A DNA stretch of 64,000 nt from Desulfotignum sp. (GTDB taxonomy: Bacteria; Desulfobacterota; Desulfobacteria; Desulfobacterales; Desulfobacteraceae): positions 2,601 through 66,600 of the forward strand of contig JBFLKI010000154.1 of NCBI GenBank assembly GCA_040883135.1. Reading direction: 5' to 3'. Below the pieces are notes generated by a model that worked only from the letters and a program-made list of their open reading frames with translations, had not been told where the DNA came from and did not search any database. The translations under genes and the position numbers were made by a program. Positions 2,461-45,501 of this stretch are shown piece after piece; within the stretch, counting starts at the first letter, position 1; each line of letters starts with the position of its first letter.

Positions 2461-3303
2461 TCACCCGGTCCTGTTTTCAGATGAATTCAAATGAGAGGGT
2501 GTGGTGTTCATCTCCAGACTGTTCAGCCCGTTTTTGCACACGTGAGAACCTGCCGCCATGGATTGTTCCAGCAACCGGTCATTGTCAGCCAGACGGGTCC
2601 GGGGATTTTCCGGGTGCCACAGATGATAGCATACCGCCCGGAAAGGGTGCTCCTTACGGACCAGGCCATATTTGAACAGGCGGACGACAAATTCGGAATC
2701 TTCCCGGCCCCAGCCCGTGAAATCGTGGTTGAATCCGTTCACCGCAATCACATCCGCCTTGAAAATCCCCATATTGCAGCTTCGGATGCCTGACAACCGA
2801 TGGCCTTTTTTCAGACTCGGGAAAAACGGGATCCGAAAAATATGGTGGGCATTACCGAGGCGGCCGGCCAGGGTTTGACACACTAGACGGCCGAAAGAAA
2901 AGCAATCTGTTTTGTCAAACGCCGGAGTCGACTTCCCGTCCACCAATACCCGTTTCCCCTGAAAAAAACAGCCTGATTCCGCCAGATCCAGGTGATCCGA
3001 GACAAAATACCTGTCCGGAATACAATCACCATCCAGAAATACCAGGTAATCACCCGCGGAGGCTGCAACCGCCCTGTTCCTCGCCCGGGCCGCACGAAAC
3101 CCCAGATCCTTCTGCCAGATATGAAAAAATGCCGGACCGGACCGGTTTTCAAAGCTTCCCAAAAGGGTCCGGGTCTTTGGACCGGACCCGTCATCCGCCA
3201 CCAGGATCTCATCGGGCAGCCGGGTCTGGGCATAGAGCGCCTCCAGCACTTTTTTCAATGCATCCGGACGGTTATAGGTGGTGACGATCACGGACAGTTT
3301 CAT
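2461..3303 (-). CDS. Glycosyltransferase family 2 with a galactosyltransferase-like C-terminal region
   Basis: 280 aa: KLSVIVTTYNRPDALKKVLEALYAQT...ILVADDGS...FLDGDC...GWGREDSEF. It overlaps the upstream gene by 4 nt. Confidence 0.85.
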   Translation of the reverse strand: MKLSVIVTTYNRPDALKKVLEALYAQTRLPDEILVADDGSGPKTRTLLGSFENRSGPAFFHIWQKDLGFRAARARNRAVAASAGDYLVFLDGDCIPDRYFVSDHLDLAESGCFFQGKRVLVDGKSTPAFDKTDCFSFGRLVCQTLAGRLGNAHHIFRIPFFPSLKKGHRLSGIRSCNMGIFKADVIAVNGFNHDFTGWGREDSEFVVRLFKYGLVRKEHPFRAVCYHLWHPENPRTRLADNDRLLEQSMAAGSHVCKNGLNSLEMNTTPSHLNSSENRTG

Positions 3304-9852: not shown

Positions 9853-11044
9853 GGCGCATCAGTTTTGTATACAAATATTTGAGCCAAACCCCGGCCTTTG
9901 CCAAAAATTTCGGCAACCTGACCGGATTTTCATCGGCATTGCGTTTGAGCAGATACCCTCCTGTCCCGGCCATGACCAGGTTGGGAATCCACATGCCGAA
10001 AACCGGAGGAAACCGGCCGGTTTCTCCGGCAGACCACCCGGCAGCCAGAAACATATAATAAACCACCAGAAAAAAAACACCCAGGCCCAGTCCGGAAGAT
10101 CGACCTGTCACCAGAGACTGAGCCCCGAGAGGAAAGGCCAGCAATCCCAGGAAAAGGCAGGCAAACGGTACGGAAAATTTTTCATGCAGCACCATCTTTG
10201 CCTCGCTCATTTTTTTATCATCCGCCTTACCGGCACGGATAAAATTCATCAGTTCCCGGAGGCTGTATTCATCAAGATCCTTTTGGATATTTTTGTCTCC
10301 ACCCTGCTGAATCCGGGCCAGATCGATATTGATATCATAATGTCCGAACCGGATATTGGACACCTCTTTTTTTTCGATGTCCACCTGGTTGATCATGCCG
10401 TTGTATAGCCGGATGGTATACATGTTTCTGTTCTGTGACAGAATCAGGCGGCCTTGCGGGGCAATTGAGATCCGGGTCATGCCCTTGACGGTTCTGTCTT
10501 CGATGAATACATCGGTCAGATCTCTGGTTTTCAGATCCACCTGGGACACATAGATCATGATATCTTCCAGCCGGGTGTTGAACTGCCGTTCCTCCAGGGC
10601 CAGATCCATACTGGAACGGGCCAGTTCCAGCGTTTTCTCTGTGACGGACAGCTTTCCCCAGGGTACGGCGAACACGGTAATGAAAAGAGTCACCCCGGTG
10701 CCCAGCAAACAGAAAATCAGTACCGGGGGAAGCAGCCGGTAAAGGGACAGGCCCGCGCCTTTGACTGCGGTCATTTCATTTTCCACGGACATGCGCACAA
10801 AAATCAGCAGCACGGCAATCATCACGGACATGGGAATGGTGAATTCCAGAAACCGGGGCAGGGTATATAAGATCATCAGCAGCACGGCAATCACATCTGC
10901 ATTGTAATTGACCACCAGATTCATGATTTCCGGAATCCGGGTCATCAGAAACACAAAGGTCAGAAAACACAGACTGATTCCGAACGGCGGAAAAAATTCT
11001 CTGAAGATATACCGGTTTATAGTGGTAGAGGCACGCATATGCAC
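9836..11044 (-). CDS. lptF: LPS export ABC permease LptF (YjgP/YjgQ family)
   Basis: 402 aa, starting INRYIFREFFPPFGISLCFLTFVFL..., with the same architecture as LptG. It is the first gene of the minus-strand envelope operon. Confidence 0.85.
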   Translation of the reverse strand: MHMRASTTINRYIFREFFPPFGISLCFLTFVFLMTRIPEIMNLVVNYNADVIAVLLMILYTLPRFLEFTIPMSVMIAVLLIFVRMSVENEMTAVKGAGLSLYRLLPPVLIFCLLGTGVTLFITVFAVPWGKLSVTEKTLELARSSMDLALEERQFNTRLEDIMIYVSQVDLKTRDLTDVFIEDRTVKGMTRISIAPQGRLILSQNRNMYTIRLYNGMINQVDIEKKEVSNIRFGHYDINIDLARIQQGGDKNIQKDLDEYSLRELMNFIRAGKADDKKMSEAKMVLHEKFSVPFACLFLGLLAFPLGAQSLVTGRSSGLGLGVFFLVVYYMFLAAGWSAGETGRFPPVFGMWIPNLVMAGTGGYLLKRNADENPVRLPKFLAKAGVWLKYLYTKLMRHDLPA

Positions 11045-43005: not shown

Positions 43006-43079
43006 AGGTTTTAATTTTTCTTGACGAACCCTCAGAAATATGGTTTAGCTGTAGAAACATTAACGGAGAGACTCAAAAA

Positions 43080-43154
43080 ATGAATTACAGCAGCACAGAC
43101 AGATCCTATTTTTATTTCTGGTATTTTTATACGGATCTGCCTGGGCCGTTGTAA
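43080..43154 (+). CDS. Candidate leader peptide MNYSSTDRSYFYFWYFYTDLPGPL (24 aa) with 8 consecutive aromatic codons
   Basis: GGAGAG at 43065-43070 lies 9 nt before ATG 43080. Codons 43107-43130 read TAT TTT TAT TTC TGG TAT TTT TAT. The stop TAA is at 43152-43154, with a terminator 25 nt downstream and a DAHP synthase gene after it. Confidence 0.6.
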   Translation: MNYSSTDRSYFYFWYFYTDLPGPL

Positions 43155-43176
43155 CAGTTTTTCCATAAAACCAACC

Positions 43177-43220
43177 AAAGCCGCAGGCAGAGATACCGCC
43201 TGCGGCTTTGGTATTTTTCA
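43177..43220 (+). terminator. Rho-independent terminator (attenuator) between the leader ORF and DAHP synthase
   Basis: AAAGCCGCAGGC (43177-43188), a 9-nt loop, GCCTGCGGCTTT (43198-43209), then GGTATTTTT. The core is 9 GC-rich bp. It ends 42 nt before the aro gene ATG. Confidence 0.65.
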
Positions 43221-43261
43221 GCTGAGGGCGGCACACCTTTTGACCTGCAAAGGAAACCGCC

Positions 43262-44299
43262 ATGAAAAAAACCTTTGACATCCATGTAAAAAAATTCGAC
43301 CCCCTCATTTCACCATCAGACATGAAACAGTCCCTGCCATTGACGGATGCGGCAGTTCACACGGTTGTTTCCGGCAGAAAACAGGTAGTGGACATCCTGT
43401 CGGGAAAAGATGACCGACTGCTGGTCATAGCCGGGCCGTGTTCCATCCATGACCCGGAAGCGGCCCTGGAGTTCGCTGATAAACTCAAGACACTGCGCCT
43501 GGAAGTGTCTGATAAAATCAATTTGATCATGCGGGTATATTTTGAGAAACCCCGGACCACCGTGGGATGGAAGGGCCTGATCAATGATCCGTTTCTGGAT
43601 TCGTCCTACAATGTCAATGCCGGTCTGCAGACCGCCAGACAGCTGCTCATCGATATCAATGACTCCGGTCTGCCTACAGCCACGGAAATCCTGGATCCTA
43701 TCACCCCGCAGTACATTGCCGGACTGCTGACCTGGGTGGCTGTCGGGGCCCGCACCACGGAATCACAGACCCACCGGGAAATGGCATCCGGGCTGTCCAT
43801 GCCCGTGGGGTTCAAAAACAGTACAGACGGCCGTATTACGGCGGCGGTCAATGCCATACAGGCGGCCGGGGCACCCCAGCATTTTCTGGGTATCGACCCG
43901 GACGGCCGGTCCGCCGTGGTCTCCACCACGGGCAACCCATACTGCCACCTGGTTCTGCGGGGGGGCGCCACCCCGAATTACGACCCGGTTTCCGTGGGAC
44001 GTGCCCAGGCCTTTCTCAGGCAGAAGCACCTGCCGGACCGCCTCATCATCGATTGCTCCCATGACAATTCGGGCCAGAGACACACCGGTCAGGCCTTTGT
44101 GTTCAAAAGTGCGCTGGATCAACGCCTTGAAGGCAATTCAGGCATCATGGGGTTGATGCTGGAAAGCAACCTGTTTGAAGGCCGCCAGAACTGCCCGGGG
44201 GACGGGTGTGCGCTTAAATACGGAGTGTCCATCACCGACGAATGCATTTCATGGCAGACCACCGAACAGTTGATCCGGTGTGCATACAACCGTCTGTAG
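43262..44299 (+). CDS. aroG: 3-deoxy-7-phosphoheptulonate (DAHP) synthase, class I (AroF/G/H type; isozyme specificity not resolvable by eye)
   Basis: 345 aa: LLVIAGPCSIHDPEAALEFA...KPRTTVGWKGLINDP...IDCSHDNS. Confidence 0.9.
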   Translation: MKKTFDIHVKKFDPLISPSDMKQSLPLTDAAVHTVVSGRKQVVDILSGKDDRLLVIAGPCSIHDPEAALEFADKLKTLRLEVSDKINLIMRVYFEKPRTTVGWKGLINDPFLDSSYNVNAGLQTARQLLIDINDSGLPTATEILDPITPQYIAGLLTWVAVGARTTESQTHREMASGLSMPVGFKNSTDGRITAAVNAIQAAGAPQHFLGIDPDGRSAVVSTTGNPYCHLVLRGGATPNYDPVSVGRAQAFLRQKHLPDRLIIDCSHDNSGQRHTGQAFVFKSALDQRLEGNSGIMGLMLESNLFEGRQNCPGDGCALKYGVSITDECISWQTTEQLIRCAYNRL

Positions 44300-44313: not shown

Positions 44314-45501
44314 TCAATCACCATTGGATGCCGATTTCAACTGTCCGGTGATGCACTGCACCAGCATCAAGGAAACAAAACTCAGCCCGGCCCCTGCCAG
44401 AAAAGGGATCCGGTAGTCCACCAGCCAGAGAAGGCCGCCCAACGCGGGCAGCACCACTGCGGCGACATGGTTGATGGTGAACCCCATGGCCATGCTGGGA
44501 GCAATATCCCGGGGGTCTGCAAGTTTCTGGAAAAAGGTGTTGATGGCAATGGCGAAATTGAAAAACATATGGTCCAGGATATATAGACCTCCGGCCAGAA
44601 CCCGGGAATCCACCAGAGCATAGGCGATGAAAATGGCAATCAGTGACAGATACTCCAGGCTCAGCATCCTGCGTTCCCCGAAACGAACGATGCATCTGCC
44701 GATAAAAGGGCTCAAAAAATAATTGATGCCGTTATTGATAAAAAACAGGACGGCAATGCCCTGGACCGTGTATTCAAACTTTTTGACCAGCAGAAACACG
44801 GCAAAGGCCATGAAGATCTGCCGGCGCGCTCCGGCCATAAAAGTCAGTGCATAGTACAGCCAGTATCGCTTTTTGAAGATCAGTTTTTTGTGCTGGGGAA
44901 TCATATCCGCTGATGCAGGGTTTCTGGAAAACGCCCACAGGCCGACTCCGGCCACCAGAACGCCAAACACCAAATAAAGCTGGGAAAAGGAAAGAAACAT
45001 CACCAAAATGAACACCAGCACCCCGGTGAACATACTGCTGAGGGCTGCATAGCTTCTCAGTTTTCCAAATACCGCCGGGGCCACGGATTTGTCAAAATAC
45101 TGCAATCCCAGGGATTGGTAGGTGGTCTCATAATAATGGAACCCGAAACTCATTACCAGGGTCGTGAGGATCAGCCCGACAAAGCTGGGGAGCATCCCTG
45201 TGGCGGCCAGCCCGACACCCAGGAGCAGCACCGACAGGGCCGAAAGCCGGTGTTCCTTGAGCACCAGAAGCACGTAGACCACCAGCAGGGCCAGAAATCC
45301 GGGAATTTCCCGGACCGACTGAATCACCCCCACATGCTGACCTTCCAAGTGAACCACTTTCACCGCAAAATTGTCAAACAGGGTCTGCCACACGTGCAGC
45401 CCACCGGAAACCGTGATGGTGAGCACCATCAGATAGATATACATGGGGTTGTGGATCAAAGATCGTTTCATTTGCCGCTCCGGCTCTCTTTGTTGCTGCA
45501 T
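44314..45501 (-). CDS. MFS-type transporter (substrate unknown)
   Basis: A ~395-aa polytopic protein with two six-helix halves. No specific subfamily recognised. The start could be Met11 (45471). Confidence 0.65.
   Translation of the reverse strand: MQQQREPERQMKRSLIHNPMYIYLMVLTITVSGGLHVWQTLFDNFAVKVVHLEGQHVGVIQSVREIPGFLALLVVYVLLVLKEHRLSALSVLLLGVGLAATGMLPSFVGLILTTLVMSFGFHYYETTYQSLGLQYFDKSVAPAVFGKLRSYAALSSMFTGVLVFILVMFLSFSQLYLVFGVLVAGVGLWAFSRNPASADMIPQHKKLIFKKRYWLYYALTFMAGARRQIFMAFAVFLLVKKFEYTVQGIAVLFFINNGINYFLSPFIGRCIVRFGERRMLSLEYLSLIAIFIAYALVDSRVLAGGLYILDHMFFNFAIAINTFFQKLADPRDIAPSMAMGFTINHVAAVVLPALGGLLWLVDYRIPFLAGAGLSFVSLMLVQCITGQLKSASNGD

What the first reader, a model, noticed from the sequence alone, without database searches (positions are those of the whole stretch)
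43060..43261. Leader peptide with eight consecutive aromatic codons (YFYFWYFY) and terminator/antiterminator hairpins upstream of DAHP synthase
**Seen in the sequence:**
- A 24-codon ORF at 43080-43154 with an SD-like GGAGAG 9 nt upstream. Codons 10-17 are Tyr-Phe-Tyr-Phe-Trp-Tyr-Phe-Tyr.
- CAGATCC (43100-43106) is perfectly complementary to GGATCTG (43133-43139). This stem brackets the aromatic codon run almost exactly.
- GCCTGGGC (43139-43146) can pair with the 5' arm of the terminator, GCCGCAGGC (43180-43188), giving 8 bp with one bulged G.
- The terminator itself (43177-43209 plus a T-rich tail to 43220) ends 42 nt before the DAHP synthase ATG.

**Inference:**
- This is the layout of a classical ribosome-mediated attenuator. 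A ribosome that reaches the stop at 43152 would cover the antiterminator strand and let the terminator form. A ribosome stalled in the aromatic run would leave that strand free.
- Known aromatic leaders (pheL, trpL, pheST) are enriched for one amino acid. A mixed Tyr/Phe/Trp run controlling the first common step of the pathway would integrate all three end products in one RNA.
- I am not aware of this arrangement being described for this lineage.
Basis: partly seen in the sequence, partly recalled or inferred. Interest (0 to 1): 0.75.

Follow-up and report, generated by a model that had tools for sequence, protein, structure and literature searches.

The report
Aromatic leader-peptide attenuator before DAHP synthase
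A short upstream reading frame packed with eight tyrosine, phenylalanine and tryptophan codons, plus switchable RNA hairpins, most likely lets this sulfate-reducer-type bacterium turn on the first enzyme of aromatic amino acid synthesis when those amino acids run short; it is real and conserved, but it is a well-known kind of switch.

Summary
Window 43080-43154 encodes MNYSSTDRSYFYFWYFYTDLPGPL*. It has an SD 9 nt upstream and a -30.5 kcal/mol terminator hairpin downstream, followed by a class I-alpha DAHP synthase (43262-44299).

This is not chance:
- The same 23-27 codon leader, terminator and promoter -35 box sit directly upstream of DAHP synthase in 24 loci. These come from Desulfobacterales-type genomes and metagenomes with otherwise unrelated neighbours.
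- The reading frame is conserved: 77% aromatic codons in frame, against 23-28% out of frame.
- All three alternative pairings hold across relatives. The antiterminator pairs in 86% of cells, against 27-48% when slid, with compensatory changes.
- Folding with a modelled ribosome gives the classical logic. No ribosome, or a ribosome at the stop codon, leaves the terminator arm free. A stall at the early aromatic codons lets the antiterminator form.

The best explanation is a ribosome-mediated transcription attenuator that senses Tyr/Phe (and here Trp) tRNA charging.

Mixed Phe/Tyr leaders before DAHP synthase are already known: aroR-aroF in Corynebacterium (tested), uORF-13 in Firmicutes and uORFC-13-1 in Acholeplasma. 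This family is not in Rfam 15, and I found no paper describing it.

Verdict: a new member of a known kind, of moderate interest.

The parts
43021..43049 (+). Putative promoter: -35 TTGACG (43021-43026), 17-nt spacer, -10-like TTTAGC (43044-43049) preceded by TG at 43041-43042
   Evidence: TTGAC is invariant in 10/10 aligned relatives at the same distance from the leader start. The tool's strict sigma-70 scan did not call it. The transcription start is inferred, not shown.
43065..43070 (+). Shine-Dalgarno of the leader ORF (GGAGAG), 9 nt before the ATG
   Evidence: An SD-like AAGGA/GGAG lies a few to about 15 nt upstream of the chosen start codon in most relatives. In the MFE fold, 43065-43073 pairs with 43156-43164.
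43080..43154 (+). Leader peptide ORF, MNYSSTDRSYFYFWYFYTDLPGPL*
   Evidence: Conserved as a 23-27 codon ORF in 23 relatives. The frame is always open, while the other frames are interrupted in 15 and 10 of 23.
43107..43130 (+). Run of eight aromatic codons (TAT TTT TAT TTC TGG TAT TTT TAT): the proposed sensing codons
   Evidence: Longest such run in the window. Across the family, 77% of codons are aromatic in frame 0 against 23% and 28% in the other frames.
43085..43106 (+). Region 1: 5' arm of the anti-antiterminator helix (1:2)
   Evidence: MFE of 43083-43156 is -23.8 kcal/mol, z -4.6. The core pairs (A1 columns 35-42 with 91-98) are conserved.
43133..43154 (+). Region 2: 3' arm of 1:2. Positions 43136-43146 (UCUGCCUGGGC) form the antiterminator strand. 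The region also encodes the conserved L-P of the peptide and ends at the stop codon.
   Evidence: Covariation.
43174..43188 (+). Region 3: 5' arm of the terminator. Positions 43180-43191 pair alternatively with region 2 (G43183 bulged).
   Evidence: The 2:3 pairing is 86% paired across relatives against 27-48% when slid, with 6 pairs changed on both sides.
43198..43218 (+). Region 4: 3' arm of the terminator (43198-43212), then A and UUUUU (43214-43218)
   Evidence: Hairpin -30.5 kcal/mol, z -7.8. The 3:4 pairing is 93% paired across relatives, with 5 pairs changed on both sides.
43227..43261 (+). Hairpin enclosing the DAHP synthase SD (AAGGA 43250-43254), with its 3' arm abutting the ATG. A possible secondary, translational layer; weakly supported.
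   Evidence: -12.9 kcal/mol, z -1.7. The outer stem covaries in L001-L004. With 2:3 enforced, region 4 pairs with its 5' arm. AUG accessibility rises from 0.47 to 0.91 while SD accessibility is unchanged.
43262..44299 (+). Regulated gene: class I-alpha 3-deoxy-7-phosphoheptulonate (DAHP) synthase, apparently monocistronic (a convergent MFS gene lies at 44314-45501)
   Evidence: Pfam PF00793, 3e-85. NCBIfam TIGR00034 aroFGH and NF009395, both above their cut-offs.

Best explanation
This is a ribosome-mediated (leader-peptide) transcription attenuator for the DAHP synthase gene.

**Proposed sequence of events**
- A promoter around 43021-43049 starts a transcript whose first ~165 nt hold a 24-codon ORF.
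- *Aromatic tRNAs well charged:* the ribosome runs to the stop codon (43152-43154) and covers region 2. If no ribosome is engaged, region 1 pairs with region 2 instead. Either way region 3 is free to pair with region 4. The terminator (43174-43212 plus U tract) forms and transcription stops before the gene.
- *Tyr-, Phe- or Trp-tRNA scarce:* the ribosome stalls in the early part of the aromatic run (43107 onward) and covers region 1. Region 2 (43136-43146) then pairs with the just-made region 3 (43180-43191) before region 4 emerges. The terminator is pre-empted and RNA polymerase reads into the gene.

**Shown here**
- The sequence elements and their energies.
- Conservation and covariation of the elements.
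- Conservation of the reading frame.
- Exclusive linkage to DAHP synthase.

**Inferred**
- The promoter and transcription start.
- Actual termination and ribosome stalling.
- The response to amino acid supply, and which of the three amino acids matters in vivo.
For: **Anatomy in the window**
- ORF, SD, terminator and the three alternative helices, at -23.8, -21.5 and -30.5 kcal/mol.

**Ribosome-mask folding of the transcript lacking region 4**
- No ribosome gives the 1:2 helix.
- A-site at codons 2-13 gives the 11-bp antiterminator.
- A-site at W14 or later, or at the stop codon, gives no antiterminator.

**Conservation**
- 23-27 codon aromatic-run leaders, nearly all with an SD-like motif upstream of the chosen start and all followed by a terminator, sit upstream of DAHP synthase in Desulfobacterales-type loci from two collections.
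- A covariance model recovers all 22 training sequences. It also finds two loci not used to build it, L099 (76 bits) and L090 (52 bits), all directly upstream of the gene.

**Covariation**
- 3:4 is 93% paired against 32-61% when slid.
- 2:3 is 86% against 27-48%, with 6 of 10 pairs changed on both sides.
- 2:3 gives the same result on a model-based alignment whose model did not contain that helix.
- The 1:2 core is conserved.
- G-U pairs in these helices would be A-C mismatches on the other strand, so the plus-strand RNA is the functional form.

**Coding signal**
- 77% aromatic codons in frame against 23% and 28% out of frame. Phe, Tyr and Trp interchange freely while the residue class is kept.

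**Linkage**
- Upstream neighbours differ in every locus examined, and none has the window's radical SAM, FtsZ or MFS genes. A conserved -35 TTGAC lies between the neighbour and the leader.

**Precedent**
- An experimentally tested attenuator of the same logic controls aroF in C. glutamicum (PMC11802643, PMC4046766).
Against: - There are no transcript or expression data for this organism.
- At equilibrium, with region 4 present, the terminator wins at every modelled ribosome position in the window. Antitermination must therefore be kinetic, as it is in the trp leader (my knowledge of that system).
- In the footprint model, stalls at the last four aromatic codons (W14-Y17) do not favour the antiterminator.
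- The window's U tract is interrupted, and the plus-strand hairpin was not called by the consensus terminator scan.
- The 1:2 helix carries an A-C mismatch (A43099 opposite C43140) shared by several relatives.
- Sequence conservation of regions 1-3 is high, so much of the support is conservation rather than independent compensatory change.
- Some close DAHP synthase loci (L008, L009, L013) have no leader.
Confidence: 0.85

Rival explanations
1. The hairpin-plus-terminator is a ligand-, protein- or tRNA-sensing RNA switch (a riboswitch, or a TRAP- or T-box-like system). The short ORF is incidental to a U-rich loop.
For: - There is a sub-threshold match to the trpB riboswitch-candidate motif RF04312, which has the same overall layout (39.6 bits).
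- The aromatic run sits in the loop of P1, where a ligand or protein site could also lie.
Against: - The trpB score is below the gathering threshold of 59, and none of 11 relatives gave any trpB match at E up to 1.
- No T-box or other Rfam family matches.
- The loop varies in nucleotide sequence while keeping the aromatic residue class in one frame. An SD-like motif, start codon, stop position and ORF length of 23-27 codons are conserved. An RNA-only sensor does not predict this.
Confidence: 0.05
2. The leader is translated and senses aromatic supply, but its main output is not intrinsic termination. Instead it acts through translation initiation of the DAHP synthase, Rho-dependent termination or mRNA stability.
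For: - A hairpin encloses the gene's SD and abuts its ATG, and its outer stem covaries in the four closest relatives.
- With the antiterminator enforced, region 4 pairs with this hairpin's 5' arm and AUG accessibility rises from 0.47 to 0.91.
- The window's U tract is imperfect.
Against: - A strong G+C-rich hairpin followed by a U run is present in every family member, usually with a perfect U tract.
- SD accessibility itself does not change in the model.
- The SD hairpin is weak (z -1.7) and absent from more distant family members.
Confidence: 0.06
3. The ORF is an independent small-protein gene (a hydrophobic or aromatic peptide) with its own terminator, and has no regulatory link to the downstream gene.
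For: - It is a conserved, translatable ORF with an SD and a conserved C-terminal G-L-P-x-x-R motif.
- Some leader peptides are known to act in trans (peTrpL, PMC7298713).
Against: - It is found only directly upstream of DAHP synthase, whatever the other neighbours.
- The conserved C-terminal residues coincide with region 2 of the RNA (CUG CCU), which covaries with region 3.
- No separate promoter for the DAHP synthase is evident in the 43 nt after the terminator.
Confidence: 0.03

Closest known systems
aroR-aroF attenuator of Corynebacterium glutamicum (Neshat et al. 2014, as described in PMC11802643; leader first noted in PMC4046766)
   Same: - A leader peptide upstream of a DAHP synthase gene, with mixed aromatic regulatory codons (Phe-Tyr-Phe).
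- Ribosome stalling raises transcription of the gene.
   Different: - Actinobacterial, with only three regulatory codons and no Trp. Only Phe limitation was reported to be effective.
- The leader here has eight consecutive codons including Trp (seven to ten aromatic codons in relatives).
[quoted passage not shown] 2019, PMC6429828, supplementary text)
   Same: - A short ORF whose aromatic codons (F-Y-F) lie in the loop of hairpin P1, followed by a terminator.
- About half of the examples lie upstream of aroF DAHP synthase.
- Predicted to work like the trp attenuator.
   Different: - Found in Firmicutes and environmental sequences; predicted only.
- Short F-Y-F core, also associated with tyrA and other shikimate genes.
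- The family here was found only before a class I-alpha DAHP synthase in Desulfobacterales-type genomes.
uORFC-13-1 motif of Acholeplasma (PMC8632094)
   Same: A uORF immediately upstream of a terminator and of aroF, proposed to sense the speed of Phe incorporation.
   Different: - Restricted to Acholeplasma, with 24 representatives.
- The regulatory signal is a U run coding for at least one Phe, not a long mixed Tyr/Phe/Trp run.
Classical enterobacterial leaders trpL, pheL and pheM (Yanofsky model; my knowledge, and PMC3082878 for pheL)
   Same: - A four-segment 1:2 / 2:3 / 3:4 design.
- Regulatory codons placed so that a stalled ribosome masks region 1.
- A stop codon placed so that a terminating ribosome masks region 2.
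- A terminator more stable than the antiterminator.
   Different: - They control terminal-branch operons or the Phe-tRNA synthetase, not the common first step.
- Their runs are dominated by one amino acid.
- No Rfam leader family matches here apart from His_leader at 27 bits against a gathering score of 49.
Salmonella/E. coli his leader (multi-hairpin relay A:B, C:D, E:F versus B:C, D:E; my knowledge)
   Same: In many relatives of this element, a chain of alternative pairings passes the ribosome's position on to a distal terminator.
   Different: - In those relatives both 3:4 and 5:6 are terminators with U tracts.
- The window itself has only one terminator.

Membership tests
Ribosome-mediated (leader-peptide) transcription attenuators | Short translatable ORF (SD plus start codon) between the promoter and the regulated gene | tested here: met
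   ORF 43080-43154 with GGAGAG 9 nt upstream. ORF and start codon conserved in 23 relatives, most with an SD-like motif. Conserved -35 box upstream.
Ribosome-mediated (leader-peptide) transcription attenuators | Cluster of codons for the end product(s) of the regulated pathway | tested here: met
   YFYFWYFY in the window. Relatives carry 7-10 aromatic residues per leader, frame-specific at 77% against 23% and 28%.
Ribosome-mediated (leader-peptide) transcription attenuators | Intrinsic terminator between the leader ORF and the regulated gene | tested here: met
   -30.5 kcal/mol hairpin plus U run, present in all relatives with covariation. Caveats: the U tract is interrupted in the window, and the plus strand was not called by the simple scan.
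Ribosome-mediated (leader-peptide) transcription attenuators | Mutually exclusive antiterminator (2:3) and anti-antiterminator (1:2), positioned so that a stalled ribosome frees region 2 and a terminating ribosome covers it | tested here: met
   Energies. Ribosome-mask folding. Covariation and conservation. The stop codon lies 6 nt after the antiterminator strand.
Ribosome-mediated (leader-peptide) transcription attenuators | A prematurely terminated leader transcript, with read-through that responds to charged-tRNA supply | not testable with these tools
   Needs Term-seq, northern blots or reporter assays in a Desulfobacteraceae host or a heterologous system.
Rfam RF04312 trpB motif (riboswitch candidate of Firmicutes and Fusobacteria) | Covariance-model score at or above the gathering threshold (59 bits) | tested here: not met
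   39.6 bits in the window. No trpB match at E up to 1 in 11 relatives. The described phyla also differ (PMC11109978).
Rfam amino-acid leader families (His_leader RF00514, and other leader families in Rfam 15) | Covariance-model score at or above the gathering threshold | tested here: not met
   His_leader scores 27 bits against 49. No other leader family is listed at E up to 10. Nothing apart from a tRNA reaches a gathering score in the whole window.
aroR (Actinobacteria), uORF-13 (Firmicutes) and uORFC-13-1 (Acholeplasma) DAHP synthase attenuators | Sequence or structure homology to those published alignments | not testable with these tools
   Their alignments are not in the libraries on hand. 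Only the architecture (aromatic codons in the P1 loop, a terminator, aroF downstream) can be compared, and it matches (PMC6429828 supplement, PMC8632094, PMC4046766).

The most novel reading that the evidence does not exclude
The leader may be a multi-input, multi-output attenuator.

**Inputs.** One run of codons reads the charging of Tyr-, Phe- and Trp-tRNA together to set flux into the whole shikimate pathway. Lineages appear to re-tune the codon mix: L010 has only Tyr, L007 and L011 are Phe-dominant, and Trp is optional.

**Outputs.** The ribosome's position may be relayed through a chain of alternative helices to more than one output:
- two tandem terminators in many relatives (1:2 / 2:3 / 3:4 / 4:5 / 5:6);
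- in this genome, a hairpin next to the gene's start codon that would add a translational layer.
Probability: 0.25. Interest if true: 0.55.

Novelty: new member of a known kind. Interest (0 to 1): 0.4.

Why it matters
- **Regulation in an unstudied group.** It gives a concrete, testable account of how Desulfobacterales-type bacteria control entry into aromatic amino acid synthesis. I know of no genetic work on this regulation in the group.
- **A missing RNA family.** It adds a well-supported cis-regulatory RNA family that is absent from Rfam 15. There are 24 loci, and a working covariance model was built here.
- **Convergence.** Leader-peptide attenuation of DAHP synthase now appears in a fourth major lineage. 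This suggests repeated convergence on the same solution.
- **Possible applications.** The unusually long, mixed aromatic run, and the coupled tandem terminators in relatives, could serve as compact sensors of aromatic tRNA charging.
- **Limits.** It does not overturn anything known about attenuation.

Tried and rejected
1. **Equilibrium folding with the full terminator present**. The terminator wins at every ribosome position in the window, so this cannot model the switch. I replaced it with folding of the transcript lacking region 4.
2. **Membership of the trpB motif RF04312.** Rejected: the score is below threshold and is not reproduced in relatives.
3. **'The hairpin is just the terminator of the upstream radical SAM gene.'** Rejected: upstream neighbours differ in every locus, many are divergent, and a conserved -35 box lies in between.
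4. **A second copy of the element in the 64-kb window.** None was found; the only extra hit is the minus-strand reflection of the terminator.
5. **Identifying the source genome through the exact DAHP synthase sequence.** It is not on record. The nearest relative is a Desulfotignum sp. MAG at 81% protein identity.
6. **SD-hairpin relay in the window.** SD accessibility does not change and only the AUG opens, so I kept it as a weak side observation.
7. **Literature searches for a description in Desulfobacterota.** Nothing was found. The library lacks most subscription-journal papers, for example the Russian comparative-genomics surveys of attenuators, so absence is not proof.
8. **Minus-strand ORFs overlapping the region** (43060-43323, 43127-43285, 43032-43178). 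Not pursued, because the G-U pairs in the conserved helices mark the plus strand as the functional RNA.
Full report
**1. The observation**

- Window 43080-43154 is an ATG-initiated ORF of 24 sense codons, MNYSSTDRSYFYFWYFYTDLPGPL*, with GGAGAG 9 nt upstream.
- Codons 10-17 (43107-43130) are Tyr-Phe-Tyr-Phe-Trp-Tyr-Phe-Tyr.
- The whole 43060-43261 segment folds to -73.9 kcal/mol, against -45.7 ± 4.2 for dinucleotide shuffles (z -6.8).
- The downstream gene, 43262-44299, is a class I-alpha DAHP synthase (PF00793 at 3e-85; TIGR00034 aroFGH and NF009395 above cut-off).
- It is followed by a convergent MFS gene, so the unit is leader plus one gene. The upstream genes are FtsZ and a radical SAM protein on the same strand.

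- **1:2:** CAGATCC/GGATCTG is the inner part of a 19-bp imperfect helix, 43085-43106 with 43133-43154 (-23.8 kcal/mol).
- **2:3:** the antiterminator is 11 bp, UCUGCCUGGGC 43136-43146 with GCC(G)CAGGCAGA 43180-43191 (-21.5 kcal/mol for the segment).
- **3:4:** the terminator is 43174-43188 with 43198-43212 (-30.5 kcal/mol, z -7.8), followed by A and five U.

The consensus scan flagged this hairpin only on the minus strand.

The 8-codon run is the longest aromatic run in any frame of the window. A run of 8 or more appeared in only 1 of 200 order-2 Markov simulations.

**2. Relatives**

Scanning one genome per species and the metagenome collection with the DAHP synthase gave 160 loci.
- The closest are Desulfobacteraceae: a Desulfotignum sp. 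MAG at 81%, a Desulfobacteraceae MAG at 73%, Desulfobacter at 72% and Desulfobacula at 68%. The exact protein is not on record.
- A script that looked for aromatic-rich short ORFs in the 450 nt upstream found them in almost all loci whose enzyme is at least ~54-57% identical to the query.
- After choosing the proximal start codon, the leaders are 23-27 codons long. Nearly all have an SD-like AAGGA or GGAG upstream of the chosen start codon.
- Every one is followed by a G+C-rich hairpin and a U run.
- The peptides read M-x(5-8)-[7-10 aromatic residues]-x(1-3)-G-L-P-x-x-R*.
- The C-terminal L-P is the translation of CUG CCU, the core of RNA region 2. That conservation is therefore explained by the RNA.

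A covariance model built from 22 sequences recovers all of them at 69-129 bits.
- It also finds two loci not used to build it: L099 at 76 bits, and L090 at 52 bits (cut by the contig end).
- It finds nothing else in 863 kb except minus-strand reflections of the terminators.
- There is no second copy in the window.

The upstream neighbours are different in every locus examined: BCAA permease, DUF3360, HD-domain protein, GlnRS, AAA ATPase, 2-hydroxyacid dehydrogenase, acyl-CoA dehydrogenase and TPR protein.
- None of the 22 family loci has the window's radical SAM, FtsZ or MFS genes.
- A TTGAC -35 box is invariant in 10 of 10 aligned relatives, about 55 nt before the leader start. It is followed 17 nt later by a TG-n-TTTAAG-like -10.
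- The element is thus a self-contained promoter-leader-terminator cassette tied to DAHP synthase.

**3. Tests of the structure**

*On the MAFFT alignment A1:*

| Helix | Cells paired | When 3' partner is slid 1-3 columns | Pairs changed on both sides |
|---|---|---|---|
| Terminator (3:4) | 93% | 32-61% | 5 |
| Antiterminator (2:3) | 86% | 27-48% | 6 of 10 |
| 1:2, all 22 pairs | 62% | 34-41% | 15 of 22 |

- In 2:3, L007 and L011 change UCUG/CAGA to UUUG/UAAA.
- The eight core pairs of 1:2 (CAGGCAGA with UCUGCCUG) are paired in most sequences.

*On the model-based alignment A3:* the model contained only 1:2 and 3:4. The antiterminator again gives 86.5% against 27-48%.

*Strand:* several pairs alternate between G-C and G-U (for example G98 with C or U at column 146, 11 against 9). 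On the opposite strand these would be mismatches, so the plus-strand RNA is the functional molecule.

*Caveat:* regions 1-3 are strongly conserved in sequence. Much of this support is therefore conservation, and the shuffle control is not a probability.

**4. Tests of the coding signal**

In the ten most aromatic codons of each of 23 leaders, 77% are aromatic in the ORF frame, against 23% and 28% in the other frames.
- The ORF frame is open in all 23. The other frames are interrupted in 15 and 10.
- Phe, Tyr and Trp interchange freely between relatives while the residue class is kept. This is what selection on decoding predicts, and it is not what a nucleotide motif predicts.
- Tyr is the commonest residue, then Phe.
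- Trp is absent in 7 of 23 leaders, which carry Arg, Cys, Gly or another aromatic residue in or near that part of the run.
- L010 has seven Tyr and no Phe or Trp. L007 and L011 are Phe-dominant.
- U-ending codons are strongly preferred: TAT 78 against TAC 13, and TTT 60 against TTC 10. In the window's long ORFs the U-ending fractions are 58% and 54%.

**5. Mechanism**

I folded the transcript truncated before region 4 and forced a 29-nt footprint to be unpaired.
- With no ribosome, the window forms 1:2 (-34.7 kcal/mol including an outer helix that pairs the leader SD, 43065-43073, with 43156-43164).
- With the A site anywhere from codon 2 to codon 13, it forms the 11-bp antiterminator.
- With the A site at W14 or later, or at the stop codon, it forms no antiterminator. 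The footprint then starts to cover region 2, and the 5' part of region 1 is released.
- With region 4 present, the terminator wins at equilibrium at every position. The choice must therefore be kinetic, as in the trp leader, where 3:4 is also the most stable helix (my knowledge of that system).

This is the classical logic: charged tRNA leads to termination, and stalling in the run leads to read-through. I rate this explanation at 0.85. What is missing is any transcript or expression measurement.

**6. Comparison with what is known**

Rfam 15 has no family for this element.
- The only near hits are the trpB motif RF04312 (39.6 bits against a gathering score of 59) and His_leader (27 against 49).
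- None of 11 relatives gave any trpB match at E up to 1.
- The trpB motif is a Firmicutes/Fusobacteria riboswitch candidate with a hairpin-plus-terminator layout. Its authors say it might itself be an attenuator (PMC11109978).

The kind of element, however, is known.
- **C. glutamicum aroR:** a Phe-Tyr-Phe leader before aroF. Transcription rises when ribosomes stall under Phe limitation (PMC4046766, PMC11802643).
- **Firmicutes uORF-13:** F-Y-F in the loop of P1 followed by a terminator. About half of its 336 examples lie before aroF (PMC6429828, supplementary text).
- **Acholeplasma uORFC-13-1:** a uORF upstream of aroF and a terminator (PMC8632094).
- **E. coli aroF:** attenuation was hypothesised in 1980 (cited in PMC2659441 and PMC8632094).

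What is new here:
- the lineage;
- the length of the run (eight consecutive codons, and up to nine or ten aromatic residues in relatives);
- the inclusion of Trp;
- in relatives, the second terminator (section 7).

I found no paper describing this family. The library omits most subscription journals, so absence is not proof.

**7. Side observations**

*Second terminator in relatives.*
- Twelve relatives carry a second terminator about 15 nt after the first.
- The 3' arm and U tail of the first are complementary to the A run and 5' arm of the second. This gives 4:5 hairpins of -13 to -23 kcal/mol.
- In equilibrium models of L029, L085 and L088, both terminators switch off together when the ribosome is placed on the early aromatic codons. 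Both return when it is placed at the stop codon.
- The two terminators resemble each other, so part of this complementarity may simply reflect duplication.

*SD-enclosing hairpin in the window.*
- The window and its four closest relatives lack the second terminator. They have instead a hairpin that encloses the DAHP synthase SD and abuts the ATG, with a covarying outer stem.
- With the antiterminator enforced, region 4 pairs with this hairpin's 5' arm. The AUG becomes more accessible (0.47 to 0.91) but the SD does not. The evidence is weak.

*Other lineages.* Aromatic-rich short ORFs followed by terminators also precede DAHP synthase in Chloroflexi-type loci (L063/L075, L068/L076) and in L091 and L137. 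The model does not recognise them, or does so only marginally.

**8. Verdict**

The finding is real and functionally interpretable. It is very probably a ribosome-mediated attenuator of DAHP synthase that responds to aromatic aminoacyl-tRNA supply.
- It is a new, lineage-specific member of a known kind, not a new principle.
- Interest is 0.4. It is a solid, well-conserved regulatory RNA family, missing from Rfam, in a poorly studied group.
- A specialist would not be surprised by it.

Noticed in passing
L005 408-475, L029 2885-2948, L085 1376-1447, L088 1328-1396; also L007, L011, L012, L082, L084, L086, L087, L099: Twelve relatives carry a second intrinsic terminator about 15 nt after the first. 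The first terminator's 3' arm plus U tail pairs with the A run plus 5' arm of the second (-13 to -23 kcal/mol). In three loci the equilibrium model switches both terminators off and on together with ribosome position. This looks like a six-segment relay controlling two terminators.
   Followed up: partly
window 43227-43261: A hairpin (GGCGG...CCGCC) encloses the DAHP synthase SD and ends at the ATG. Its outer stem covaries in L001-L004 (GGCUUU/AAAGCC, GACAA/UUGUC, GGCGGU/ACUGCC). Its 5' arm can pair with the freed terminator 3' arm. The modelled effect is on AUG accessibility, not SD accessibility.
   Followed up: partly
window 43065-43073 with 43156-43164: In the MFE fold the leader's own SD (GGAGAGACU) pairs with AGUUUUUCC just after the leader stop codon. 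This would block re-initiation on completed leader RNA. Conservation was not tested systematically.
   Followed up: no
window 43096-43217: A sub-threshold match to the Rfam trpB motif RF04312 (39.6 bits, gathering score 59), sharing ACAGAU...AUCUG..GGC and the hairpin-plus-terminator layout. None of 11 relatives gave a trpB match. The motif's authors could not exclude that trpB is itself a classic attenuator.
   Followed up: yes
L063 2755-2886, L075 2741-2872, L068 2692-2848, L076 2768-2924, L091 1292-1405, L137 1207-1326: Other aromatic-rich short ORFs followed by terminators lie upstream of class I DAHP synthase in Chloroflexi/Dehalococcoidia-type and unassigned contigs (for example GYCYYFFTGCLP and GYYRPFWFYAYRR). 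They are not recognised by model R1, or only marginally. They may be distant relatives or independent inventions.
   Followed up: partly
leaders of 23 loci (window 43107-43130): There is a strong preference for U-ending aromatic codons in the leaders: TAT 78 against TAC 13, and TTT 60 against TTC 10. In the window's long ORFs TAT is 58% and TTT is 54%. The bias could keep the loop unstructured or slow decoding. Unexplained.
   Followed up: partly
L010 2842-2919; L007 2352-2432; L011 1670-1747: The codon mix differs by lineage. L010 has seven Tyr and no Phe or Trp. L007 and L011 have six Phe and one or two Tyr, and a different C-terminal half. This suggests lineage-specific tuning of which amino acid is sensed.
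   Followed up: no
window 43099 opposite 43140: An A-C mismatch sits in the middle of the 1:2 helix (CAGACAGA against UCUGCCUG). It is shared by L001, L002, L004, L012 and L086. L010 and L092 instead have a compensated A-U at this position. It may tune the stability of the anti-antiterminator.
   Followed up: no
window 10060-10077 (minus strand): The second-longest aromatic codon run in the window (FFFWWF). I did not check whether it lies inside a gene.
   Followed up: no
L008, L009, L013 (upstream of position 3001): Three DAHP synthase loci of similar protein identity (54-60%) have no aromatic leader. The element is therefore frequent in this clade of enzymes but not universal.
   Followed up: partly
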